Shown here piece by piece: positions 1,598 to 17,548 of a stretch of DNA of 17,548 nucleotides. Made by a program: the position numbers and the translations under genes. A model generated the notes under the pieces. It was not told the origin of the DNA. It did not search any database and saw nothing but the letters and a program-made list of their open reading frames with translations. Each line of letters begins with the position of its first letter. Positions within the stretch are counted from its first letter, which is position 1. Source of the DNA: a phage; assembly GCA_025289735.1 (NCBI GenBank), contig GCA_025289735.1_4764.3. One strand, 5' to 3'.

Positions 1598-4500
1598 ATG
1601 GCAGATTTAAGCAGAATCCAATTTAAACGCACTAGCACTAAAGGTCGTAAACCTGATGCTAGTACGATGAATCCGGGGGAATTGGCAATCAACCTTGCGG
1701 ATCAATATCTTCTTACTAAAAATGATTCCGGTGCTATTATCAATTTAAGTTGTCCTCCGGTGTATGACCGCGATGTTACAATGGCGGGTAAGGTTAAAGG
1801 AAATAATTATATTTTAAGCAAAACCGCCAACTATCTGGAAGATCAGACAGCGCGAGATCTTAACTACTTTGGTGCTTTCCGTACCAATGGTCTTGATGGT
1901 TTTCTCGAACTAACGCTAAACGTTCCTCATTCTTCCGGTATTCAACATGGTCGAGGATTTACTTTCCAGTATGGACACCTTGGATCGCGTGTAGAAACTT
2001 ATGGTTATAATAAAGAAGGACAAAAAGCATTTAGTTATAAAATGTATCATGAAGGGGATAAACCAACTCCAGGAGAATTGAACGTCTATAGCAAACAAGA
2101 AGTAGATCGGATGTTCCAAAAGACACTTGATTTTGGAATTGAGTCCGGTTGGTTTAAAATCGCTACAGTATATCTACCACAACAATATGGGCGTAGTGCT
2201 AAAATTAGATTGGTTGGTGGTAATGGTTATAATGTAGGACAGACCGGGCAAGCTAATATTATTGAATTGGTTCTGCGTAGCGGGAATGGAAATCCGGTTG
2301 GTGTTGTGTTTAACGCTTATATGACCATCTGGTATATAGACCAGAAGTTTTGTGCTATTCCTACTGGTGGTGACTCTTATGATATATACGGTAGCTATTC
2401 CGGTCATACTGGATTTGTGTTGGCTGAATACCAGACTAGCCCTGACGTTAACCTGACTTTATATGATAACCCACAATTTATAGGAAGTCAATTACCGGAA
2501 GCTGAAACAAAGTTCGATGCTTATACAATCACTTCATTTAGTACTTATCGCAACCACGGGACATTAAATTTTGGTGCTAATTCTCAAGGCCAATATGACA
2601 TTGAGCATTTGAACGAACAACCGACAAATGCTAAAAAGATGTTGCGTCGCTTCCGTAGTTGTGCTCCTGCCACTATCTGGCATGAGACAGTTGATGATAA
2701 CCAGTATCGTCTTGCTACTGGATACGAAGATACAAATCAGGAATTATTGCTGACAGCAACATCCGGGTTACATGTCAAGAAATTAACATTGGATGGCGGT
2801 GTCACTGGAAATTCTGGTATTGATATTCGTCGAGGACCAAACGAAGCAAGCCATTTTAATTTTATGGATTATCGCACTGGACAAGATGTTCGTAATGGCT
2901 GGTTTGGCTTCGGTGATGGTCAGACCAAAGATTTTATTTGGTGGAACGATAACGGTCAAAACTCATTAAATCTTTTAGAAAACGGTGAATTACAGATTTC
3001 TGGTGGTAAAGGCCAGAAAATTGTAATGAATAGCGAAGTTGCATTATCTGAAAATGCTCGTTTGGCTGTTAGAGGTGGTAATTATGGCGTGATATTCCGT
3101 AATGATGGAACGAACTTTCATCTGCTTACTACCGATTTAAAAGATTCTTTTGGAAATTGGAATAATCGTAGACCATTTAGTTATGACTTTGCCGAAGGTG
3201 GATTGGATCTAGGTGGCACAACGACCGCACGTTGTTTGCATCTGGGAATTGATGGTAGTACCCGTATCGAGGATAACTTAGTTTTCAGGGCGGGATCTCG
3301 TCAATCAATGGACTACTTAGAATTTGTTCATTGGGGGGCAAGTAATACCGGACGTAATAACGTTTTAAGTCTTCGTGACTCAAAAGGATTTTTAGCAGAA
3401 TTTGAACGTAAAGGTGATAACACCATTCAAAATACATTCTTCGGAAGATTTAAAGTCAATGGTGGTTCTAACGCTATTACCGTTAATGCTCCTACTGATT
3501 CCGAGTCTGTTTATGTGAAAGGTACTTGTAACGATGTAGATAACTGGTATATAGGTAAAGGTGGTGCTGATAATGCATTAGCCTTTTATAGCTATAAGTC
3601 TAATGCGGCTATTTATCTCACAAATAATGGTGAGGTTTTATTAGCCCCACAAAACACCGCAATTGTTAACGTCAATCGCGACCGTATACACATCAACGGT
3701 ACACAGTGGGTGGCAAATCAGCCACATGGCTGGGGTAATCAGTGGCTGTCCGAAGCGCCTATATTCGTTGATTTTGGTACTGGTATTCCAAATGATACCT
3801 ATATGCCAATCATTAAAGCCCGTAGCCAAATTACTGGCGGTTATGCAACTAAGGCCGATTTTGGTATATATCGTCATGGTACTGATACTTGGGGTGATGC
3901 TGTTATTCGTGTCGGTTCTGCCGAAAGTGGTGATAGTAATCATCCAAACGCAATTTATACTTTCCGGGCAAATGGCGATTTTAAAGCTCCGGCTGGCCTC
4001 CGTGCTGGTGTTAACTTGGGTGTTGGTACTGATCCTGTATTGGGTGGACATTCTATTGCTATCGGTGATAATGACACTGGCTTAGTGTGGGGTGGTGATG
4101 GTCGTATTAACATGTTTGCTAACGGACAGCATATTGCATCATGGGGTACGATGTATCAAGAACACTCAGGACTATGGGGAAGTCATGGTGGTTTGTGGAC
4201 AGAAGTCGATAAAGCGATTATTTCTCATGGTCATCTAGTCCAGGCGAATGACAACTATTCTACATATGTTCGTGACATTTATATCCGTTCGGATATTCGC
4301 GTGAAGAAAGACCTAGTTAAATTTGAAAATGCATCTAAGACACTTTCAAAAATTAACGGTTACAAATATCTTCAAAAGCGCGGGACCAATGAAGACGGTA
4401 GCGAACGTTGGGAAGAAAACGCTGGTTTGATTGCTCAGGAAGTTCAAGCTATTTTGCCGGAATTGGTTGAAGGCGATCCAGATAGCGAAAACCTTCTTCG

Positions 4501-6564: not shown

Positions 6565-6597
6565 AGGGGAAGCCTTTCGGCCTCCCCTTCTTTTTAT
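6565..6597 (+). terminator. Rho-independent terminator after holin t
   Basis: 10-bp stem AGGGGAAGCC / GGCCTCCCCT (one mismatch), loop TTTC, followed by TCTTTTTA. Confidence 0.7.
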
Positions 6598-6842
6598 TGG
6601 AGCATAGAAGCCCCTGAATCACATTTTGACGCTGTATGATGAAAACAGGTAGCGTACCAGTCATCGGCTTGTTTGTCTTCGTCAGAAAACGCGTAATTGC
6701 GTTGTATGCCGTTTTCTACTTTGACCAGTGCAATAGCTGTTTCTGGAAGATCAATCAATCGGACAAAATCACCGTCTTCCCACTCCACACGGGCAATATC
6801 ATAGCCCATCTCAAAGTATACAATCGCTTGTTCTAATTTCAT
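6594..6842 (-). CDS. Hypothetical early protein (82 aa)
   Basis: ATG overlaps the upstream stop (ATGA). Last gene of the minus-strand array, ending at the t terminator. Confidence 0.5.
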   Translation of the reverse strand: MKLEQAIVYFEMGYDIARVEWEDGDFVRLIDLPETAIALVKVENGIQRNYAFSDEDKQADDWYATCFHHTASKCDSGASMLQ

Positions 6843-8838: not shown

Positions 8839-9639
8839 TTAACCCTTCTTATATTCGCAAACATATTGAGTACCATAATCATAGCTAATGCGACCTTTCT
8901 CGATGACTTCAAAGCGGATTTCATCGTTTTCCCCTACCCACATTTTGTACTCGTTGAAGTATCCTGCTACATCCGGTTTGCTCATACCAACAACCATATT
9001 TTTATATTGTTTGCTGCGTGTCAGATTTGATTTAAACACTTCGCGCTCATCAACATATACGAAAGAAGACAATTCACCTTCGGTCATGGTCATTTTCAGC
9101 TTGCCGCCCTTGTTGCCATAAGTAGAGTTGCCATACAATGGATCTTTGCGGCTGTCTGTTTCAATACCATCAATGATTTTCCATGTAAATTTTGCAATGC
9201 ACTGGTAAGTGATAGATCCAGAGATTTTCTCTTCTTTCTTCTGTTCTTCCACCACTTTTTCTTCCTGTTTCGGTTGTTCTTCTTCAACCTTCACAGAAGT
9301 CTCTGAATCGCTTTCTGACGCGGTTTCTTCTTTAGGTAATACATTCATCAAGTTTTGGATTTGAGCGTGATATACAGCCTCCAGTGGCTGAATTTTCCCG
9401 ATATTGATCATTGTATCACGAACAGTTTTATTCCAGTTGCGTTGCTCTTGTTTCAGAGACGGATCAATCTTAACAGCCTTAACATATACTTCATGAAGTT
9501 TAGAATCAAGTGCGGAGATAGACTCATTAGCACAAATAAACTTCTCTGATTTGGTAGTAGCTTTAGCGCAATCAAAGGACGCAGCATTAGCACCGAAAGC
9601 AGTAGCAGAAAGAACGATAGCAGCGATAATGTTTTTCAT
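8839..9639 (-). CDS. Secreted protein with N-terminal LprI/DUF1311-like domain, charged linker and C-terminal beta-rich domain (266 aa)
   Basis: ATG with GAGGAA 8 nt upstream, directly downstream of promoter cassette P3. Signal peptide MKNIIAAIVLSATAFGANA|AS. Then FDCAKATTKSEKFICANESISALDSKLHEVY...QEQRNWNKTVRD, fitting the DUF1311 pattern as I recall it (C..A.T..E..IC...LD..L..Y...Q..W...RD). E/K-rich linker. C-terminal domain with two Cys and an SGSITY motif. Confidence 0.7.
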   Translation of the reverse strand: MKNIIAAIVLSATAFGANAASFDCAKATTKSEKFICANESISALDSKLHEVYVKAVKIDPSLKQEQRNWNKTVRDTMINIGKIQPLEAVYHAQIQNLMNVLPKEETASESDSETSVKVEEEQPKQEEKVVEEQKKEEKISGSITYQCIAKFTWKIIDGIETDSRKDPLYGNSTYGNKGGKLKMTMTEGELSSFVYVDEREVFKSNLTRSKQYKNMVVGMSKPDVAGYFNEYKMWVGENDEIRFEVIEKGRISYDYGTQYVCEYKKG

Positions 9640-11870: not shown

Positions 11871-13235
11871 TCAACCCTTCTTAAGTTCTTTAAGATCTTT
11901 CTTATATTCCTTCATTGCGGTCGTCTTTGTCCAATACTCATATTCACTATGATGTTTATCGGCATCTTTGACCAGTCGATCATACTCTTCTTGGGTAACG
12001 CTGTACAATGGCATAGAAACTAGCTTATCGGCGTATGGACGCAGTTTTTCATGTCCATTGATGGATTGCATTACCTCGGCCTTTTTCTTGCCCTGTAGCT
12101 CGATTTCGCCCTTAATTACGCGGTCGATAAATTCGGCTTTAGCCATTGCATAATTGTATGCTTCCAGCGTTTCCGCTTGCATCAATTCAATGCGTTTATC
12201 GACATAGCCTAATCGGATTTCGACGAATCGACGGATCAGATCGCTCGCTTTCTCGAATACTTCTACTAAACCACGTTCATTAACTACTACGATATTCTGG
12301 GCTACTAACTGTGTTAGTTTAAAATCCTTCATGATTTGCTCATGTCGAGCGGATTCATCTTCGCTTTTGAAATAATCACGTTTCAGTGTTACTTCAAATC
12401 TGAATCCGTCCTTAGAGCAACGGTCATTATACGATACAATCAGATCTTTTTCTTCCAGTGCATCCAGTACCGCTACATATTCTTCACGGTCGAACTTATA
12501 AGGAACTTCTGATATTGTCAGTTTAGTCTTGCCGTTTAGTTCATATGTACCCTCAAGAATTACACCATCGCGATCATCTCGCGGGATAACTTTACCCGTG
12601 AATTTCGGGAATTGAACACTAGGTTCTTTATCCAGTTTTCCGGCAAGTGCTAGCTCTGTGCATTCAATGAGGCTTTCCAGTGAATGCGGTAAAATGTCAG
12701 TTTTATACCCTGTAGCAATACCACTAATACCATTAGCCAATACCATTGGCACAACTGGCAAGTAGAACGCTGGCGGGATGTGTTCCAGATCTTCGTGCTT
12801 CGGTGCGCAATTCATATCTTTATAGATTTTAAAGAAGTTTTCATGCACACGAGCAAAGATATAACGTGCCGCACCTGCTTTCTGGACTAAACGCGATCCG
12901 AAGTTACCTTGACCGTCAAGCAGTGGAGTATTATTGCTCCATGTATTCGCCATGAGTGATCCGGCTTCTACGGCATTAGTTTCCCCGTGGTGATAACCCA
13001 ACTCAGCAACACCAGATCCAATATCTGCCATCTTACGGAATTTCTTACGGTCGCCTTTACTCTTTTGCAAAGCACATTCCATAACAAAGCGTTGCACTGG
13101 TTTAAGCCCATCCACTAATTGAGGAATCCCGCGTTCCTCGGCAGAATAGATCGCATATTCCTTAGCTTCATTATGTACAATGCTTTCAAGGCTGCGGTAA
13201 GTAAATGTGTTTACAATTTGACTAATTTTATCCAT
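11871..13235 (-). CDS. 52: DNA topoisomerase II medium subunit, gp52-like (GyrA-like breakage-reunion domain)
   Basis: ATG at 13233..13235 with GAGGTGA upstream; the track start is a GTG. HNEAKEYAIYSAEERGIPQLVDGLKPVQRFV, GYHHGE, LLDGQGNFGS, ARYIFAR and HIPPAFYLP match recalled T4 gp52 / GyrA N-terminal motifs. Confidence 0.9.
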   Translation of the reverse strand: MDKISQIVNTFTYRSLESIVHNEAKEYAIYSAEERGIPQLVDGLKPVQRFVMECALQKSKGDRKKFRKMADIGSGVAELGYHHGETNAVEAGSLMANTWSNNTPLLDGQGNFGSRLVQKAGAARYIFARVHENFFKIYKDMNCAPKHEDLEHIPPAFYLPVVPMVLANGISGIATGYKTDILPHSLESLIECTELALAGKLDKEPSVQFPKFTGKVIPRDDRDGVILEGTYELNGKTKLTISEVPYKFDREEYVAVLDALEEKDLIVSYNDRCSKDGFRFEVTLKRDYFKSEDESARHEQIMKDFKLTQLVAQNIVVVNERGLVEVFEKASDLIRRFVEIRLGYVDKRIELMQAETLEAYNYAMAKAEFIDRVIKGEIELQGKKKAEVMQSINGHEKLRPYADKLVSMPLYSVTQEEYDRLVKDADKHHSEYEYWTKTTAMKEYKKDLKELKKG

Positions 13236-13242
13236 CTTCACC

Positions 13243-13605
13243 TCATACACGCTTACAAATCACATTCTTTACTTTATCAGATTTATCAGCCCAATCCAAT
13301 AGCCATTTTAACGGAAGGATTGACACAATAAACGGGGCAGCAATCAAAGCAAACATGATACACCTGATAATCAGGAAAACGCAAGTGACAAAACTAGCGA
13401 TAGTGATCCCGACAAAACAAAATACCATAGAAAACAGAGTAATGATATAGAAAGGCCAGAATACCCACTCCCGCATCTTAACGCCTTTGTATTCTCTGAA
13501 TTGCTTAAAATCAACAAACAACTCTCGGATAGACGAGTACAGGACCGAAAAATCATCTTTCATTGCTCTGAATGAGCAATCTTCTATTTTAGAATGACCT
13601 AGCAT
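13243..13605 (-). CDS. Small membrane protein (120 aa, two predicted TM helices)
   Basis: ATG with AAGGCGG upstream. Hydrophobic segments WVFWPFYIITLFSMVFCFVGITIASFV and CVFLIIRCIMFALIAAPFIVSILPL. Confidence 0.55.
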   Translation of the reverse strand: MLGHSKIEDCSFRAMKDDFSVLYSSIRELFVDFKQFREYKGVKMREWVFWPFYIITLFSMVFCFVGITIASFVTCVFLIIRCIMFALIAAPFIVSILPLKWLLDWADKSDKVKNVICKRV

Positions 13606-13607
13606 TA

Positions 13608-13901
13608 TTAACCGCCTTTAACCATTGATACAGGAATTGTTTTCTGATTTGTGTATAATTGGCCTACTTCAATTTTTTCTTGAATCACCACGACGTTACA
13701 ATATCCACTGTCTTTAAGTTTTCTGATAATGACTCGCTTTTGTTCGTCGGTGATAGGATTGACTGTTCTCACCAATTCACCGCAAATAATAGCACCATCT
13801 TTACAATTACCAGTAACTTTCATGCTACGACCGTGAACAACAACCACGTCACCGTAAATCACATTTTCGTCGTCGTATTTGGTAATAACCGTGACCGTCA
13901 T
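13608..13901 (-). CDS. Hypothetical early protein (97 aa)
   Basis: ATG with GAGGGA 7 nt upstream. Val-rich, probably beta-rich. No family recognised. Confidence 0.5.
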   Translation of the reverse strand: MTVTVITKYDDENVIYGDVVVVHGRSMKVTGNCKDGAIICGELVRTVNPITDEQKRVIIRKLKDSGYCNVVVIQEKIEVGQLYTNQKTIPVSMVKGG

Positions 13902-13920: not shown

Positions 13921-13939
13921 AGGCCGCGCAAAGCGGCCT
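13921..13939 (-). terminator. Intergenic hairpin, possible weak terminator or RNA stabiliser (minus strand)
   Basis: AGGCCGC-gcaaa-GCGGCCT stem-loop between two minus-strand genes. On the minus strand it is followed by TTCTT and then the RBS of the next gene. Confidence 0.35.
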
Positions 13940-13946
13940 ATGTTGA

Positions 13947-14273
13947 TTATTGTTCTACAGTATAGCCGTTGTTTTCAAGCCATGCAATAACAATCTTTTC
14001 GCCAATTTCATCGAGCATTTCATCAGCGCCATATTCTTTAATGAAAGTCGATGGATCATTATTGCTTACTACGTGCTGGATCACAACATGTTCAGGAATT
14101 GCGTCTAGCAGTTCGCTATGATCATACTCATTAACGATATCTTCAACACTAACATTATTAACCAAATCAACATCATCCATAGTCACAGTAACGCGACCGG
14201 ACGGACGCAATGAATATTGACTACTTTCAACTTCAACATGTGCACTTTCGCAAGTAACTTTCATATCAACCAT
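13947..14273 (-). CDS. Highly acidic small protein (108 aa)
   Basis: ATG with AGAGGA 8 nt upstream. About 23 Asp+Glu against about 5 Lys+Arg. Immediately downstream of rIIB. Confidence 0.55.
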   Translation of the reverse strand: MVDMKVTCESAHVEVESSQYSLRPSGRVTVTMDDVDLVNNVSVEDIVNEYDHSELLDAIPEHVVIQHVVSNNDPSTFIKEYGADEMLDEIGEKIVIAWLENNGYTVEQ

Positions 14274-14287
14274 AATTAATTCCTCTG

Positions 14288-15280
14288 TTAGTAATGGCTA
14301 AAACCTTCGGTTACATCTTCAACCACATAGTAACGATGACAGCGCATTTTGGCATTCGCATAATCTTTCGGGATACTTACAACGTGACGCGGATCAACTT
14401 TACATTTAATGATTCGGCCTCGTCCACCGCCATAGTGCGGAATATAGTGTTTCGCTGCAACGTGGAGGCCATTAGAGCAAGTGCGATCATCATCTGGGTC
14501 CACGTCTTTACGCTTCATTTTAACCGTGCGCCCTGGGCTATTATCAAATGTATGCGTAAAGAAATCTTTATAATCAACATCAACACGTTTCCATGCATAG
14601 AAACAACCATCTTCCCCGATCTCAATGTCGTTGTGCTCTAAGAAGTCAAATAGACGATCTACCGCCTTACGGCTAGGGTTTTTCTTGCACTTCTCAAAGA
14701 AGTTCAGATAGTGCGTATATGGCTTATTCTCTTTAATCGACTCCACAACTCGACGAGTCAGATTATTATCAAGAACAATATTATGATAATACACAATACC
14801 ATTTTCGATACGGAAAGCGCCGTGATAATATACTTCAACCGCTTTCTTAATGTCAATCAGCGTAATTGCTTTAATAAAATCATTCTGCTTAATCGCTTCC
14901 AGTGCTTCATTAAAGTTAACATGCGACGGATCAGCAGTATAAACAATGTCGCCGCATGTAATAGTAATAAACTTAGTTGAGGCTATTGCGACGATTTTTG
15001 AGGAAGTAGTCACGGGCTTTTTTGCGCGTTCACCGCCTTTTCCTTTACTGGTTTTACGGCGTGCTTTACGTTTTTCTAGTGCCTTGCGACCTTCCGCTAC
15101 TGCGTCTTTCTGAATCAGTAATACACGGGAGGCAGTACGACGAGATACCCCAAATGCTGCCGCAAGTGCTTCGCGGGTAGTAAACTTACCTTCGCCCCAC
15201 TGTTTAGCCAGTTTGATTTGTTTCGCAGAATCCAGGCATTGAACGTTACGGTCAGAGACGGTGATTTTTGCTTTAGTCAT
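14288..15280 (-). CDS. rIIB: rIIB protein (about 330 aa)
   Basis: C-terminal two-thirds match recalled T4 rIIB blocks: KAVDRLFDFLEHNDIEIGEDGCFYAWKRV, FDNSPGRTVKMKR, TCSNGLHVAAKHYIPHYG, PRHVVSIPKDYANAKMR, YYVVEDVTE. The likely start is the ATG at 15278..15280, 9 nt from AGAGGA; the track start at 15289 abuts the SD. Confidence 0.85.
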   Translation of the reverse strand: MTKAKITVSDRNVQCLDSAKQIKLAKQWGEGKFTTREALAAAFGVSRRTASRVLLIQKDAVAEGRKALEKRKARRKTSKGKGGERAKKPVTTSSKIVAIASTKFITITCGDIVYTADPSHVNFNEALEAIKQNDFIKAITLIDIKKAVEVYYHGAFRIENGIVYYHNIVLDNNLTRRVVESIKENKPYTHYLNFFEKCKKNPSRKAVDRLFDFLEHNDIEIGEDGCFYAWKRVDVDYKDFFTHTFDNSPGRTVKMKRKDVDPDDDRTCSNGLHVAAKHYIPHYGGGRGRIIKCKVDPRHVVSIPKDYANAKMRCHRYYVVEDVTEGFSHY

Positions 15281-15342
15281 AGTATTCATTCCTCTATTAG
15301 TTGGGCGACTATCGCCGCCCGATTCACATCATTATACCAGAA

Positions 15343-15474
15343 TTATTTTGCTTCTACAACCTTGCGGATTGTGCGGTCTGATACATTATAGATTCGTGCC
15401 AGTTCGCCTTTAGTCAAGCCGCGAGCGTATTGTTTACGGATGGTTTCTTTCTGGATAGCGGTCAGTTTAGTCAT
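15343..15474 (-). CDS. Unlisted 43-aa helix-turn-helix mini-protein between rIIA and rIIB
   Basis: Hand translation of the minus strand: MTKLTAIQKETIRKQYARGLTKGELARIYNVSDRTIRKVVEAK. SD GAGGTGA 5 nt upstream of the ATG, overlapping the rIIA stop. Resembles the rIIB N-terminus (MTKAKITV...TTREALAAAFGVSRRTASRVL). Too short to appear in the ORF track. Confidence 0.5.
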   Translation of the reverse strand: MTKLTAIQKETIRKQYARGLTKGELARIYNVSDRTIRKVVEAK

Positions 15475-15485
15475 AATATCACCTC

Positions 15486-17548
15486 TTAAAATTTAACATT
15501 CTTAACCAGTTTCATAAAGTCTTGTGCGCGTTTGTCATTATGAAGAATACGATACCAGTTATCTACAATATCATACAGTAACGGGCTATTCTCTTTAAAC
15601 TTCGCACAAACTGCTTTAATTCGTTCGTTTGCTGCCGTGAATTTTTCGTCACAGATCTTTTTAGTTTCTTCGTCCATGATCCAACGAGTACGAAGGAGTA
15701 ACTTGGAAACCTCTTTATTATAATGACGACCGTACAGTCTGTCAATAAATTCTGGAACACAGCGTTCTAATTCATCGTCATGATACAACATAGTGATCAC
15801 GCCCAGATATTCGCCATACCCCAGATGATTGGTCTTAACCTTCTTAGCCAGACCAGCCAGCTTACCGCGAACAAATTCTAGCGCACATTCCAATTGTTCG
15901 TCAACGAGATATTTTTGTGTCTCGTTTCGAGTAATAATATACTTTGTTACCCCGAAGTAGTCAAGCGCCGTGTGTAATGTATTTTCACTATAGATCGATT
16001 GACGGCTACGGCTTTCGAATGCATCACCTACGCGGAACATATGCAAGCCTGATAACTCGCGAATCTCTGCCGCTTTCATGTGATGGCTGGTTTTATGCCA
16101 ACTGTCACCAATCTTTTCCATGATATACACGTTAGGCAGCTTGGGAGTAGCTTCACGTTGTGTACGCTCGGTCTTCTCCGGTTTAACTGCTTTAGCACGC
16201 AGATCATCGGCCTCAGACACTTTAATCACGGTCATTTCAGAATCATCATAATACTGTTTGATGTACTCGAAAGTCTCCATATGTTTTTCGTTGTTCTGAC
16301 GGAACACCAGTACCTTTTTATTGATGCCGTATTCCTGGACCATGCCGTTAAGAGTCAGTGCACGCAGTTTCGGTTTATCGGTATCATCAATAAGACACGT
16401 AATATCTTCTTTATGCATCCATACAAAATGCGTAATGTTGTATTGACTGCTAACGAAAGCAGGGCGCAATTTACTGATTGTGTGACGAGTACGATACAGA
16501 GTATACACCTGACCTTCTACGTCATTAGGCGAATCTTTACCCGCATTAACAAACTTATTATAGATTGCTACCGGATCATCCCATTGCCCGATCTTACCCA
16601 TCTTGCTAATAATATTTCGTTGCGTCGATGAATACTCGCTCATAAATTGCGCAAGTTTACGCTCTGTTTTAATGTTGGCGATCTTCTCTTTGACCTTTTC
16701 CAACATCATTTCATTGATTTCTGCAATGCGTTTTTCGATGTTCGCTTTAGTCTCAATTGACAAGTGAACTTCTTCACGCGATGGCATCAGGTCCAGATCA
16801 CCCAACTCAAAATTAATGTAAATGGTCTGGTGCTGGCGGTTTACAGCTTCTAACCATGTTCCGCGAACATATTCATACGGGATCGGATACTGGATCTTAC
16901 CCATGATTGCATATACTACATAGGAATCGTTATCACGCCCATTACACACATAATAATTATCAAAGCTAGGGAAATAATTAATTTCGATTGCATTGATATT
17001 AGGTTTGTGTTCCCCAAAATGACGAAGTACAAATTGTGCTTCTCGATGCCATGTCTGAATGTCTTTTTCTTTCACCGGAATAGTGATTTTCAGACCATTG
17101 TCTTCATAGGTCGGTTCGTCGAAAATCTGCACCATTTTCGGCATAGAGTTTTGCACAAATGCCGTAAAGCCATAAGCGCGACCATTGTAGTAGTTTACGA
17201 TTGTAAAGGTGTCAGTATAGCTATAAGCAGACTTCGCACCTAAACCAAAAGATCCGATATAATCATTAGTCTGGTCTTTGGTTGATTCAAAGTAAACCGT
17301 AAACAGTTGTTCTAATTCTTTCTTAGACGGAATACCAGTACCATAATCACGCACAGAAAAATACGGTTCAATTGCGGTAGGCAAATGAATATCAAACGGA
17401 CGATCTAAGGTTCCGGCTTCTTTGTGAGTGTCGGTAGCATTGCACGAATACTCACGGACGCAAGCACGCTCACAATATTGATAAGTGTTCTTAGAAAGCA
17501 CCATAAAAGCCTTGCTACTTGCTTTCAGTGAAAAATCAACCGCACCGC
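15486..17548 (-). CDS. rIIA: rIIA protein, 5'-truncated by the window edge (GHKL-type ATPase fold at the N-terminus)
   Basis: Reading frame stays open upstream of the track Met to the window end (...GAVDFSLKASSKAF-MVLSK...). SKAF, VREYSCNATDTH, DRPFDIHLP, VRDYGTGIP, DYIGSFGLGAKSAYSYTDTF and IEINYFPSFDNYY parallel recalled T4 rIIA N-terminal motifs. Position is upstream of rIIB as in T4. Confidence 0.85.
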   Translation of the reverse strand, partial: GAVDFSLKASSKAFMVLSKNTYQYCERACVREYSCNATDTHKEAGTLDRPFDIHLPTAIEPYFSVRDYGTGIPSKKELEQLFTVYFESTKDQTNDYIGSFGLGAKSAYSYTDTFTIVNYYNGRAYGFTAFVQNSMPKMVQIFDEPTYEDNGLKITIPVKEKDIQTWHREAQFVLRHFGEHKPNINAIEINYFPSFDNYYVCNGRDNDSYVVYAIMGKIQYPIPYEYVRGTWLEAVNRQHQTIYINFELGDLDLMPSREEVHLSIETKANIEKRIAEINEMMLEKVKEKIANIKTERKLAQFMSEYSSTQRNIISKMGKIGQWDDPVAIYNKFVNAGKDSPNDVEGQVYTLYRTRHTISKLRPAFVSSQYNITHFVWMHKEDITCLIDDTDKPKLRALTLNGMVQEYGINKKVLVFRQNNEKHMETFEYIKQYYDDSEMTVIKVSEADDLRAKAVKPEKTERTQREATPKLPNVYIMEKIGDSWHKTSHHMKAAEIRELSGLHMFRVGDAFESRSRQSIYSENTLHTALDYFGVTKYIITRNETQKYLVDEQLECALEFVRGKLAGLAKKVKTNHLGYGEYLGVITMLYHDDELERCVPEFIDRLYGRHYNKEVSKLLLRTRWIMDEETKKICDEKFTAANERIKAVCAKFKENSPLLYDIVDNWYRILHNDKRAQDFMKLVKNVKF

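What the first reader, a model, noticed from the sequence alone, without database searches (positions are those of the whole stretch)
13947..14273. Strongly acidic 108-aa protein next to rIIB: candidate DNA-mimic anti-defence protein
Net charge is roughly -18 (about 23 D+E against about 5 K+R), with acidic residues spread along the sequence as in known DNA mimics such as Ocr, ArdA and T4 Arn. In T4 this stretch, between rIIB and gene 52, holds denB and ndd; here it holds three unrelated ORFs.
Basis: inference. Interest (0 to 1): 0.55.

Follow-up and report, generated by a model that had tools for sequence, protein, structure and literature searches.

The report
Acidic early phage protein, function unknown
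The very acidic 108-residue gene next to rIIB is real, and it belongs to an uncharacterised family of small acidic early proteins shared by three kinds of enterobacterial phage. A DNA-mimic or decoy role is plausible but unproven, and the protein shows no relationship to Ocr, ArdA or Arn.

Summary
Window 13947-14273 (- strand) encodes 108 aa with 23 D+E against 5 K+R, net -18 and pI 4.1. It is the most acidic of 111 ORFs called in 67.5 kb of Krischvirus DNA.

The window is an RB49-like T4-type coliphage, and the gene is RB49p272, annotated 'hypothetical'. It is a real gene: it is intact in 59 phage genomes, dN/dS is 0.07-0.38, and it has a good ribosome-binding site.

It carries a significant internal duplication of a roughly 30-aa helical module (IVxEYGxxxLLDxIGxxxVIxWLExxGYTV) behind an N-terminal beta-hairpin. 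Single-module homologues of 70-84 aa occur in Kagunavirus and in many lambdoid prophages of Yersinia, Serratia, Providencia and Pectobacterium. In the prophages they sit in the early-left operon, between cI/N and cIII/gam/recombination genes. All members are strongly acidic, with net charge -9 to -20.

No Pfam, NCBIfam, PADLOC or PDB match was found by sequence or fold. hhalign against T7 Ocr and T4 Arn gives probabilities below 1%.

Published data show that the Krischvirus TB34, which carries a 98% identical copy, is restricted by BREX and rescued by Ocr supplied in trans. The protein is therefore not an Ocr equivalent against that system.

Best reading (confidence about 0.4): an early cytoplasmic decoy or inhibitor of a DNA-binding host or defence protein. 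The target is unknown.

The parts
13947..14273 (-). CDS of 108 aa (RB49p272 orthologue). Net charge -18, pI 4.09. Long, duplicated form of the family phrog_14049.
14175..14246 (-). Codons 10-33, a predicted beta-hairpin (strands 10-17 and 26-33). Its loop (residues 16-27) carries the indels and most substitutions among Krischvirus orthologues.
   Evidence: AF2 secondary structure; alignments; dS 0.73 in codons 1-48 against 0.07-0.13 in neighbouring genes
14061..14153 (-). Codons 41-71, helical repeat 1 (VSVEDIVNEYDHSELLDAIPEHVVIQHVVSN).
   Evidence: Internal repeat score 48 against shuffles 18.9 +/- 3.9, 0 of 5000 shuffles as high; helices 43-49, 52-58, 61-71
13965..14057 (-). Codons 73-103, helical repeat 2 (DPSTFIKEYGADEMLDEIGEKIVIAWLENNG). 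This is the most conserved part of the family (L87, I90, W98, E100, G103).
   Evidence: helices 74-81, 83-90, 92-101
14280..14285 (-). Shine-Dalgarno GAGGAA, 6 nt upstream of the ATG and 2 nt after the rIIB stop (14288-14290). Implies co-transcription with rIIB.
   Evidence: Read directly from the sequence
13921..13939 (-). GC-rich stem-loop (7 bp stem, 5-nt loop; centroid -13.6 kcal/mol) directly after the stop codon. It is followed by UUUCUU and the RBS of the next ORF. Terminator-like or an mRNA-stabilising hairpin.
   Evidence: a 'terminator' is annotated under this region in phage G2248
15717..15745 (-). Perfect sigma-70 consensus TTGACA-17-TATAAT inside the 3' end of rIIA. Candidate early promoter for the transcript 43-aa HTH ORF, rIIB, acidic ORF.
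   Evidence: 12 of 12 consensus matches; function inferred, not shown

Best explanation
The ORF is a real, cytoplasmic, early-expressed accessory gene of RB49-like (Krischvirus) phages. It is the duplicated, two-module member of an uncharacterised family of small, strongly acidic proteins. Each has an N-terminal beta-hairpin followed by one or two three-helix modules carrying the motif IVxEYGxxxLLDxIGxxxVIxWLExxGYTV. The family moves between virulent phages (Krischvirus, another T4-like lineage, Kagunavirus) and temperate lambdoid phages of Enterobacterales.

The most likely mechanism is stoichiometric inhibition. The hydrophobic positions build a small scaffold. The conserved excess of surface carboxylates lets the protein occupy the basic, nucleic-acid-binding surface of a host or defence protein early in infection, acting as an electrostatic decoy or nucleic-acid mimic. 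The duplication in the T4-like forms would give two binding modules.

Shown: gene reality, acidity and its conservation, the repeat architecture, the distribution, the early-operon position, and the absence of relationship to known families.
Inferred: early transcription, cytoplasmic location, decoy mechanism, and the anti-defence or host-takeover purpose. The target is unknown.
For: 1. Net charge -18, the most acidic of 111 Krischvirus ORFs.
2. All roughly 60 family clusters keep a net charge of -9 to -20 although identity falls to about 30-40%. The invariant positions are mostly hydrophobic, plus E49, D88, E100 and G103. So overall charge is maintained rather than particular acidic sites.
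3. Purifying selection, dN/dS 0.07-0.38.
4. The gene follows rIIB by 14 nt with its own SD sequence, downstream of a perfect sigma-70 promoter, which points to an early transcript.
5. In 8 Yersinia prophage loci, and in most of the 28 non-Krischvirus, non-Kagunavirus IMG/VR loci, the homologue lies on the cI/N strand, downstream of cI and N where these were detected. It lies 0.2-4 kb upstream of cIII/gam/recT/erf/exo. This is the interval where lambda has ral, orf28 and ea10.
6. Between the window and phage UPWr_E1 the flanking genes are 96-100% identical, but this gene is 88%. In a more distant T4-like contig rIIB and gp52 are 87% and 83% identical, but this gene is 40%. That is typical of accessory genes that interact with the host.
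7. The same early block of the window carries a Tad2-like anti-Thoeris gene.
8. The equivalent T4 'D region' is dispensable and holds host-takeover and restriction-related genes: denB, ndd, stp.
9. RB49 DNA has unmodified cytosine (PMC4041780), so protein-based counter-defence would be useful to it.
Against: No direct evidence exists for any binding partner. The structural model has only moderate confidence (pLDDT 74.5, pTM 0.33) and no coordinates were available, so a DNA-like charge array is untested. Acidic small proteins are common in T4-type early regions: several others in the window have net charges of -7 to -11, so acidity alone is weak evidence. Krischvirus TB34, with a 98% identical copy, is still restricted by BREX and by a type I RM + DarTG2 island. 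Any decoy activity is therefore not broad in the way Ocr's is. The elevated divergence reflects mosaic recombination (dS is also high), not demonstrated positive selection. No neighbour gene is conserved across the three phage lineages that could point to a target.
Confidence: 0.4

Rival explanations
1. It is an Ocr/ArdA-type anti-restriction DNA mimic that blocks type I restriction-modification and BREX.
For: High negative charge spread along the sequence. RB49-type DNA has unmodified cytosine and is exposed to RM systems. Prophage homologues occupy the lambda ral interval, and no ral homologue was detected in any of 41 loci.
Against: No Ocr or ArdA Pfam match for any of 23 family members. 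hhalign against T7 Ocr gives probability 0.7%. No fold match was found. TB34 carries the gene, yet Salmonella BREX restricts it 10-100-fold (much more in a brxL deletion) and Ocr or Sp6 Gp5 in trans fully rescues it. TB34 also loses about 4 logs on a type I RM + DarTG2 island.
Confidence: 0.1
2. It is an early regulator, host-takeover factor or inter-phage competition factor acting through a specific protein-protein contact. Possible targets include RNA polymerase, a protease or a division protein. On this view the acidity serves solubility or is incidental, and there is no nucleic-acid mimicry.
For: The invariant residues are mainly hydrophobic plus a few acids, a pattern typical of a small folded interaction module. 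The lambda interval concerned also holds non-mimic effectors such as cIII and kil. Many T4 early proteins are acidic. No known mimic fold was found.
Against: Net charge of -9 to -20 in 70-108 aa is kept in every member despite strong sequence divergence. That is more than solubility would require.
Confidence: 0.3
3. It is a RecBCD inhibitor analogous to lambda Gam or T7 gp5.9.
For: In lambdoid prophages it sits just upstream of the recombination module. In Kagunavirus ST20 it lies two genes before a PD-(D/E)XK nuclease. Gam and gp5.9 are small, acidic DNA mimics (established knowledge; mentions both as RecBCD inhibitors).
Against: Lambda Gam homologues co-occur about 1 kb downstream in at least 7 of the loci. 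It is therefore not a replacement for Gam. No sequence similarity to Gam families was found.
Confidence: 0.08
4. It is a chance ORF or a mis-annotation with no protein product.
For: None beyond its small size and the lack of annotation.
Against: 59 intact orthologues. dN/dS well below 1. Homologues in three unrelated phage lineages. A canonical RBS. A PHROG family match at E 5e-66.
Confidence: 0.01

Closest known systems
T7 Ocr (gp0.3), a DNA-mimic inhibitor of type I RM and BREX
   Same: Small (117 aa against 108 aa), very acidic, first-wave early gene, largely helical.
   Different: No sequence relationship (hhalign probability 0.7%; no PF08684 hit) and no fold match. The target has an N-terminal beta-hairpin and a tandem repeat. 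A phage carrying it is still BREX-sensitive and is rescued by Ocr.
T4 Arn, a DNA mimic that inhibits McrBC and binds H-NS
   Same: A small acidic protein of a T4-type phage, encoded in the same hyperplastic part of the genome. T4 arn lies about 2.3 kb beyond gene 52.
   Different: hhalign probability 0.25% and no structural match. RB49-type DNA has no hmC, so McrBC is not an obvious threat to it.
Lambda early-left accessory genes between N and cIII (ral, orf28, ea10), and gam
   Same: The prophage homologues occupy this same interval and strand. Lambda orf28 is also extremely acidic.
   Different: No detectable homology to ral, ea10, orf28 or gam. Gam co-occurs with the family rather than being replaced by it.
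PHROG families phrog_14049, phrog_7311 and phrog_11519 (all 'unknown function')
   Same: The target is a full-length member of phrog_14049 (E 5e-66) and weakly matches phrog_7311 (E 4.5e-7). The short homologues match all three.
   Different: None of these families has any annotation, so membership gives no functional information.
T4 'D region' genes between rIIB and 52 (denB.1, denB, ndd, stp, ac)
   Same: Same syntenic slot. The region is dispensable and carries host-interaction genes.
   Different: Unrelated sequences. hhalign against denB.1 gives probability 0.07%. Krischvirus lacks denB and ndd.

Membership tests
Ocr (Pfam PF08684) | Sequence homology to T7 gp0.3 | tested here: not met
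   No Pfam hit at E<=1 for the target or for any of 23 family members. hhalign of family profile A2 against T7 Ocr: probability 0.7%, 8 aligned columns.
Ocr (Pfam PF08684) | Elongated helical dimer fold mimicking bent B-DNA | tested here: inconclusive
Ocr (Pfam PF08684) | Neutralises type I RM and BREX during infection | not testable with these tools
   The literature bears on this. Krischvirus TB34 (98% identical orthologue) is restricted by Salmonella BREX and rescued by Ocr in trans (PMC11341690). It is also restricted about 10^4-fold by a type I RM + DarTG2 island (PMC12255303).
ArdA (Pfam PF07275) | Sequence homology to ArdA | tested here: not met
   No Pfam hit. No PDB sequence hit below E 0.05 with the family profile.
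T4 Arn | Sequence or fold homology to T4 Arn | tested here: not met
   hhalign probability 0.25%. Arn does not appear in the PDB sequence or fold searches.
DNA-mimic proteins (functional class, unrelated folds) | Large net negative charge, conserved among homologues | tested here: met
   Net -18 in 108 aa. Every family member has a net charge of -9 to -20.
DNA-mimic proteins (functional class, unrelated folds) | Surface carboxylates arranged with the spacing of a DNA phosphate backbone | not testable with these tools
   Only the secondary structure and confidence of the model are returned. pTM of 0.33 means the tertiary arrangement is unreliable.
DNA-mimic proteins (functional class, unrelated folds) | Binds a DNA-binding protein in competition with DNA | not testable with these tools
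   Requires biochemistry or reliable co-folding.
Lambda Gam / RecBCD inhibitors | Homology to Gam, or mutual exclusivity with Gam in the recombination module | tested here: not met
   No Pfam Gam hit. Gam homologues co-occur in loci L015, L016, L022, L024, L026, L027 and L033.
phrog_14049 (uncharacterised phage protein family) | Full-length profile match | tested here: met
   E 5.2e-66, residues 1-108 matched to profile positions 1-108 of 108.

The most novel reading that the evidence does not exclude
The family is a new-fold nucleic-acid mimic or electrostatic decoy, shared horizontally by virulent T4-like and Kagunavirus phages and by lambdoid prophages of Enterobacterales. It would neutralise a conserved DNA-binding defence or nucleoid protein that is not BREX, for example an H-NS-like silencer or a nuclease-type defence. 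The tandem duplication in T4-like phages would provide bivalent binding.
Probability: 0.3. Interest if true: 0.6.

Novelty: new member of a known kind. Interest (0 to 1): 0.35.

Why it matters
Only about a dozen DNA-mimic anti-defence proteins are catalogued (11 of 268 in EVADES), and each has its own fold. A confirmed new family would add a counter-defence tool and probably reveal its target. This one spans virulent and temperate enterobacterial phages and sits in the classic lambda early-left accessory slot. It is small, easy to clone, and has natural one-module and two-module forms. Krischvirus phages are used in therapy cocktails and have unmodified DNA, so knowing their protein-based counter-defences has practical value. 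As it stands, the finding is a well-delimited candidate, not a discovery.

Tried and rejected
- Single-sequence AF2 gave an unusable model (pLDDT 40).
- AF2 with a 23-sequence alignment gave pLDDT 74.5 but pTM 0.33.
- Pfam, NCBIfam, PADLOC and PDB sequence searches were empty, with both single sequences and the family profile.
- Homology to T4 Arn, T7 Ocr and T4 denB.1 was rejected by hhalign.
- I tested whether the conserved 316-339-aa gene downstream in Yersinia prophages (phrog_1376) is related to rIIB, which would have given a conserved partner. There is no similarity, and the gene is absent from some loci.
- I tested whether the family replaces Gam. It does not, since the two co-occur.
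- Literature searches for the locus tag, the accession, the PHROG id and peptide motifs found nothing. Searches for Krischvirus anti-defence work also found nothing.
- Rfam found no RNA family in the window.
- Positive selection was considered as the cause of the divergent N-terminal half. It was rejected in favour of mosaic recombination, because dS is raised as well.

Full report
**What the window is.** The 2.1 kb around the finding is 98-99% identical to 59 RB49-like coliphages of the genus Krischvirus (family Straboviridae), including MIZ6, JSE and RB49 itself. The gene order on the - strand is:
- rIIA (15486-17504)
- a 43-aa helix-turn-helix ORF (15343-15474)
- rIIB (14288-15289; phrog_609, E 1.8e-106)
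- the acidic ORF (13947-14273)
- a 97-aa ORF (13608-13901)
- a 120-aa membrane ORF (13243-13605)
- gp52 topoisomerase (11871-13250)

In RB49 the acidic ORF is RB49p272 / NP_891843.1, annotated 'hypothetical protein'.

**Checking the observation.** The ORF lies at exactly the stated coordinates, on the minus strand. It encodes 108 aa with D+E = 23, K+R = 5, net charge -18 and pI 4.09. Every 12-residue block contains acidic residues.
- I called ORFs in the window plus the first 50 kb of RB49, 111 in all. This ORF is the most acidic per residue (-0.167, z = -3.3). The runner-up is -0.126.
- It is a real gene. tblastn finds it intact in 59 phage records at 86-100% identity.
- Pairwise dN/dS against four orthologues is 0.07-0.38.
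- A GAGGAA Shine-Dalgarno sequence lies 6 nt before the ATG and 2 nt after the rIIB stop.
The T4 rIIB-52 interval holds denB.1, denB, ndd.6 to ndd.1, ndd, stp, ac and 52.1. This is the dispensable 'D region', and Krischvirus lacks denB and ndd (PMC12115623).

**Anatomy.** The protein contains a significant internal duplication. Residues about 46-71 align with residues 77-102 at a score of 48. Composition-preserving shuffles give 18.9 +/- 3.9, and none of 5000 reached 48. Two distant long homologues show the same duplication.
- The single-sequence AF2 model was useless (pLDDT 40).
- With a 23-sequence family alignment the model reached pLDDT 74.5 but pTM only 0.33. Local structure is therefore credible and global packing is not.
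- The predicted elements are a beta-hairpin (strands 10-17 and 26-33) followed by two three-helix units (43-49, 52-58, 61-71 and 74-81, 83-90, 92-101). The two units coincide with the sequence repeats.
- The family motif is IVxEYGxxxLLDxIGxxxVIxWLExxGYTV.
- In a 64-sequence family alignment the strongly conserved positions are mostly hydrophobic, plus D36, E49, D88, E100 and G103. Other positions are acid-rich but variable.

**Relatives.** A word-indexed search found only close Krischvirus copies. An exhaustive HMMER scan of 1.84 billion representatives added four distant relatives. Two profile searches brought the family to about 60 clusters. The family has two forms.
- Long, two-module forms (103-108 aa) occur in Krischvirus. 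They also occur in another T4-like contig, in the same slot before gp52 (L002), and in a 135-kb phage contig among small early genes (L011).
- Short, one-module forms (70-84 aa) occur in the virulent siphovirus Kagunavirus ST20. They are also found in chromosomes of Yersinia, Serratia, Pectobacterium, Providencia, Proteus, Izhakiella and Cedecea, with a weak hit in Vibrio.
- Every source names them 'hypothetical protein', and none has a Pfam domain.
- All genuine members have a net charge of -9 to -20. The acidity is a conserved property of the family, not a peculiarity of this copy.

**Context of the relatives.** In eight Yersinia loci with precomputed Pfam labels the gene lies in a lambdoid prophage. 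It is on the same strand as cI and N, after N. It lies 0.1-1.5 kb before cIII and the Erf/RecT/YqaJ recombination genes.
- I marked 33 IMG/VR loci with proteins from those loci and from phage lambda. Most show the same arrangement: cI lies 1.5-5 kb upstream, or recT/erf/exo lie 0.7-4 kb downstream, or both. Two loci are Krischvirus (rIIB upstream, gp52 downstream) and three are Kagunavirus-like.
- In lambda this interval holds ral, orf28 and ea10.
- No ral homologue was seen in any of the 41 loci.
- Lambda Gam homologues co-occur about 1 kb downstream in at least seven loci. The family is therefore not a substitute for Gam.
- No neighbouring gene is conserved across the three phage lineages. 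The 316-339-aa gene that often follows it in Yersinia prophages (phrog_1376, unknown function) is absent from some loci and unrelated to rIIB.

**Evolutionary behaviour.** Between the window and Krischvirus UPWr_E1 the flanking genes are 96-100% identical in protein, but this gene is 88%. In the more distant T4-like contig L002, rIIB and gp52 are 87% and 83% identical, but this gene is 40% and the adjacent membrane ORF is 36%.
- The extra divergence is concentrated in codons 1-48. It affects synonymous sites too: dS is 0.73 there against 0.07-0.13 in the neighbouring genes.
- It therefore reflects mosaic recombination of the N-terminal half, not demonstrated positive selection.

**Expression signals.**
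- A perfect TTGACA-17-TATAAT lies at 15745-15717 (- strand) inside the end of rIIA, and an 11-of-12 match lies inside rIIB.
- The tight rIIB-ORF junction implies co-transcription.
- Directly after the stop codon is a 7-bp GC-rich hairpin at 13921-13939 (centroid -13.6 kcal/mol, z = -2.3) followed by UUUCUU.
- Early expression is inferred from these signals and from the prophage positions. It has not been shown.

**Comparison with known families.**
- Pfam, NCBIfam, PADLOC and PDB sequence searches return nothing significant for the protein, for 23 family members, or for the family profile.
- PHROGs places it in phrog_14049 (E 5e-66), with weaker links to phrog_7311 and phrog_11519. All three have unknown function.
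- hhalign of the family profile gives probability 0.25% against T4 Arn, 0.7% against T7 Ocr and 0.07% against T4 denB.1.
- The fold searches are weakened by the low pTM. Even so, nothing supports membership of the Ocr, ArdA, Arn or Gam families.

**Published phenotypes that bear on function.**
- RB49 DNA contains unmodified cytosine (PMC4041780), so these phages are exposed to restriction.
- Krischvirus TB34 carries a 98.1% identical copy of this gene (H54). Salmonella type I BREX restricts it 10-100-fold, and far more in a brxL deletion. T7 Ocr or Sp6 Gp5 supplied in trans fully restores plating (PMC11341690).
- TB34 also loses about four logs on an EPEC island combining a type I RM system with DarTG2 (PMC12255303).
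- So the native protein does not give Ocr-like protection against that BREX system, and any anti-type-I activity is at best incomplete.

**Interpretation.** The firm conclusions are these. The gene is real. It is the duplicated member of an uncharacterised family whose strong acidity is conserved. The family is exchanged between virulent and temperate phages of Enterobacterales. It sits in early accessory regions that are rich in host-interaction genes. For example, the same block of this window encodes a Tad2-like protein (PF11195, 27.9 bits against a cut-off of 25).

The most likely mechanism is a stoichiometric electrostatic decoy for a nucleic-acid-binding host or defence protein. I put this at about 0.4. 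It remains an inference from charge conservation and position.

The rivals are:
- a non-mimic protein-protein effector (about 0.3)
- an Ocr/ArdA-like anti-restriction mimic (about 0.1, weakened by the TB34 data)
- a RecBCD inhibitor (about 0.08, weakened by co-occurrence with Gam)
- a chance ORF (about 0.01)

**Verdict.** This is an ordinary kind of object, a small acidic ORFan in a T4-type hyperplastic region. It now has a clearer definition, a family, a repeat architecture and a testable set of hypotheses. Novelty: at most a new member of the known kind 'acidic decoy or anti-defence protein'. Interest: 0.35.

Noticed in passing
window 6594-6842 (-): An 82-aa acidic ORF (net -9) matches Pfam Tad2-like, the Thoeris anti-defence 2 domain, above the gathering score (27.9 against 25 bits). 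The orthologue in contig L002 carries the same weak label. This is a recognised anti-defence family in the same early block as the finding.
   Followed up: partly
window 8839-9639 (-): A 266-aa ORF has an N-terminal match to the Pfam LprI lysozyme-inhibitor domain (23.4 bits against a cut-off of 22). This is unexpected for a T4-type early region.
   Followed up: no
window 15343-15474 (-) and 15300-15345: A 43-aa ORF between rIIA and rIIB consists of little more than a helix-turn-helix (CENP-B_N, E 7e-6; phrog_15481). It is followed by an extended -10-like TGGTATAAT and a GC-rich hairpin (GGGCGGCGATAGTCGCCC) just before rIIB. The rIIB N-terminus (residues 37-57) also gives weak HTH matches.
   Followed up: no
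window 13243-13605 (-): The 120-aa ORF before gp52 is a multi-pass membrane protein by its sequence. It diverges as fast as the acidic ORF (36% identity in L002, where gp52 is 83%). It may be the functional counterpart of the T4 membrane ORFs ac and 52.1.
   Followed up: partly
window 14130-14273 (-), codons 1-48 of the acidic ORF: Against phage UPWr_E1 the synonymous divergence here is 0.73, compared with 0.07-0.13 in the flanking genes. There is also a 3-codon indel in the hairpin loop. This is a recombination mosaic boundary inside the gene.
   Followed up: yes
proteins P0007 and P0008 (metagenomic Krischvirus contigs): One variant is frameshifted after residue 75 and has an unrelated C-terminus. 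Another is truncated to 78 aa. These are either assembly errors or evidence that the second repeat can be lost.
   Followed up: no
L048 (RB49) 40734-41165 (-), RB49p064: This is the second most acidic ORF in the sampled Krischvirus DNA (143 aa, net -18). It lies immediately downstream of the dam methyltransferase gene. It is another candidate decoy, and it is outside the window.
   Followed up: no
L003 8518-9537; also L004, L005, L006, L007, L010 and many IMG/VR loci: A 316-339-aa protein rich in charged coiled-coil sequence (phrog_1376, no Pfam) follows the short acidic homologue in many Yersinia-type lambdoid prophages. It is missing in L008 and L009.
   Followed up: partly
L052 (lambda) 3472-3558, orf28: Lambda orf28, next to ral, is a 28-aa peptide made almost entirely of acidic and aromatic residues (MEEEFEEFEEHPQDVMEQYQDYPYDYDY). 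It sits in the interval that the acidic family occupies in other lambdoid phages.
   Followed up: no
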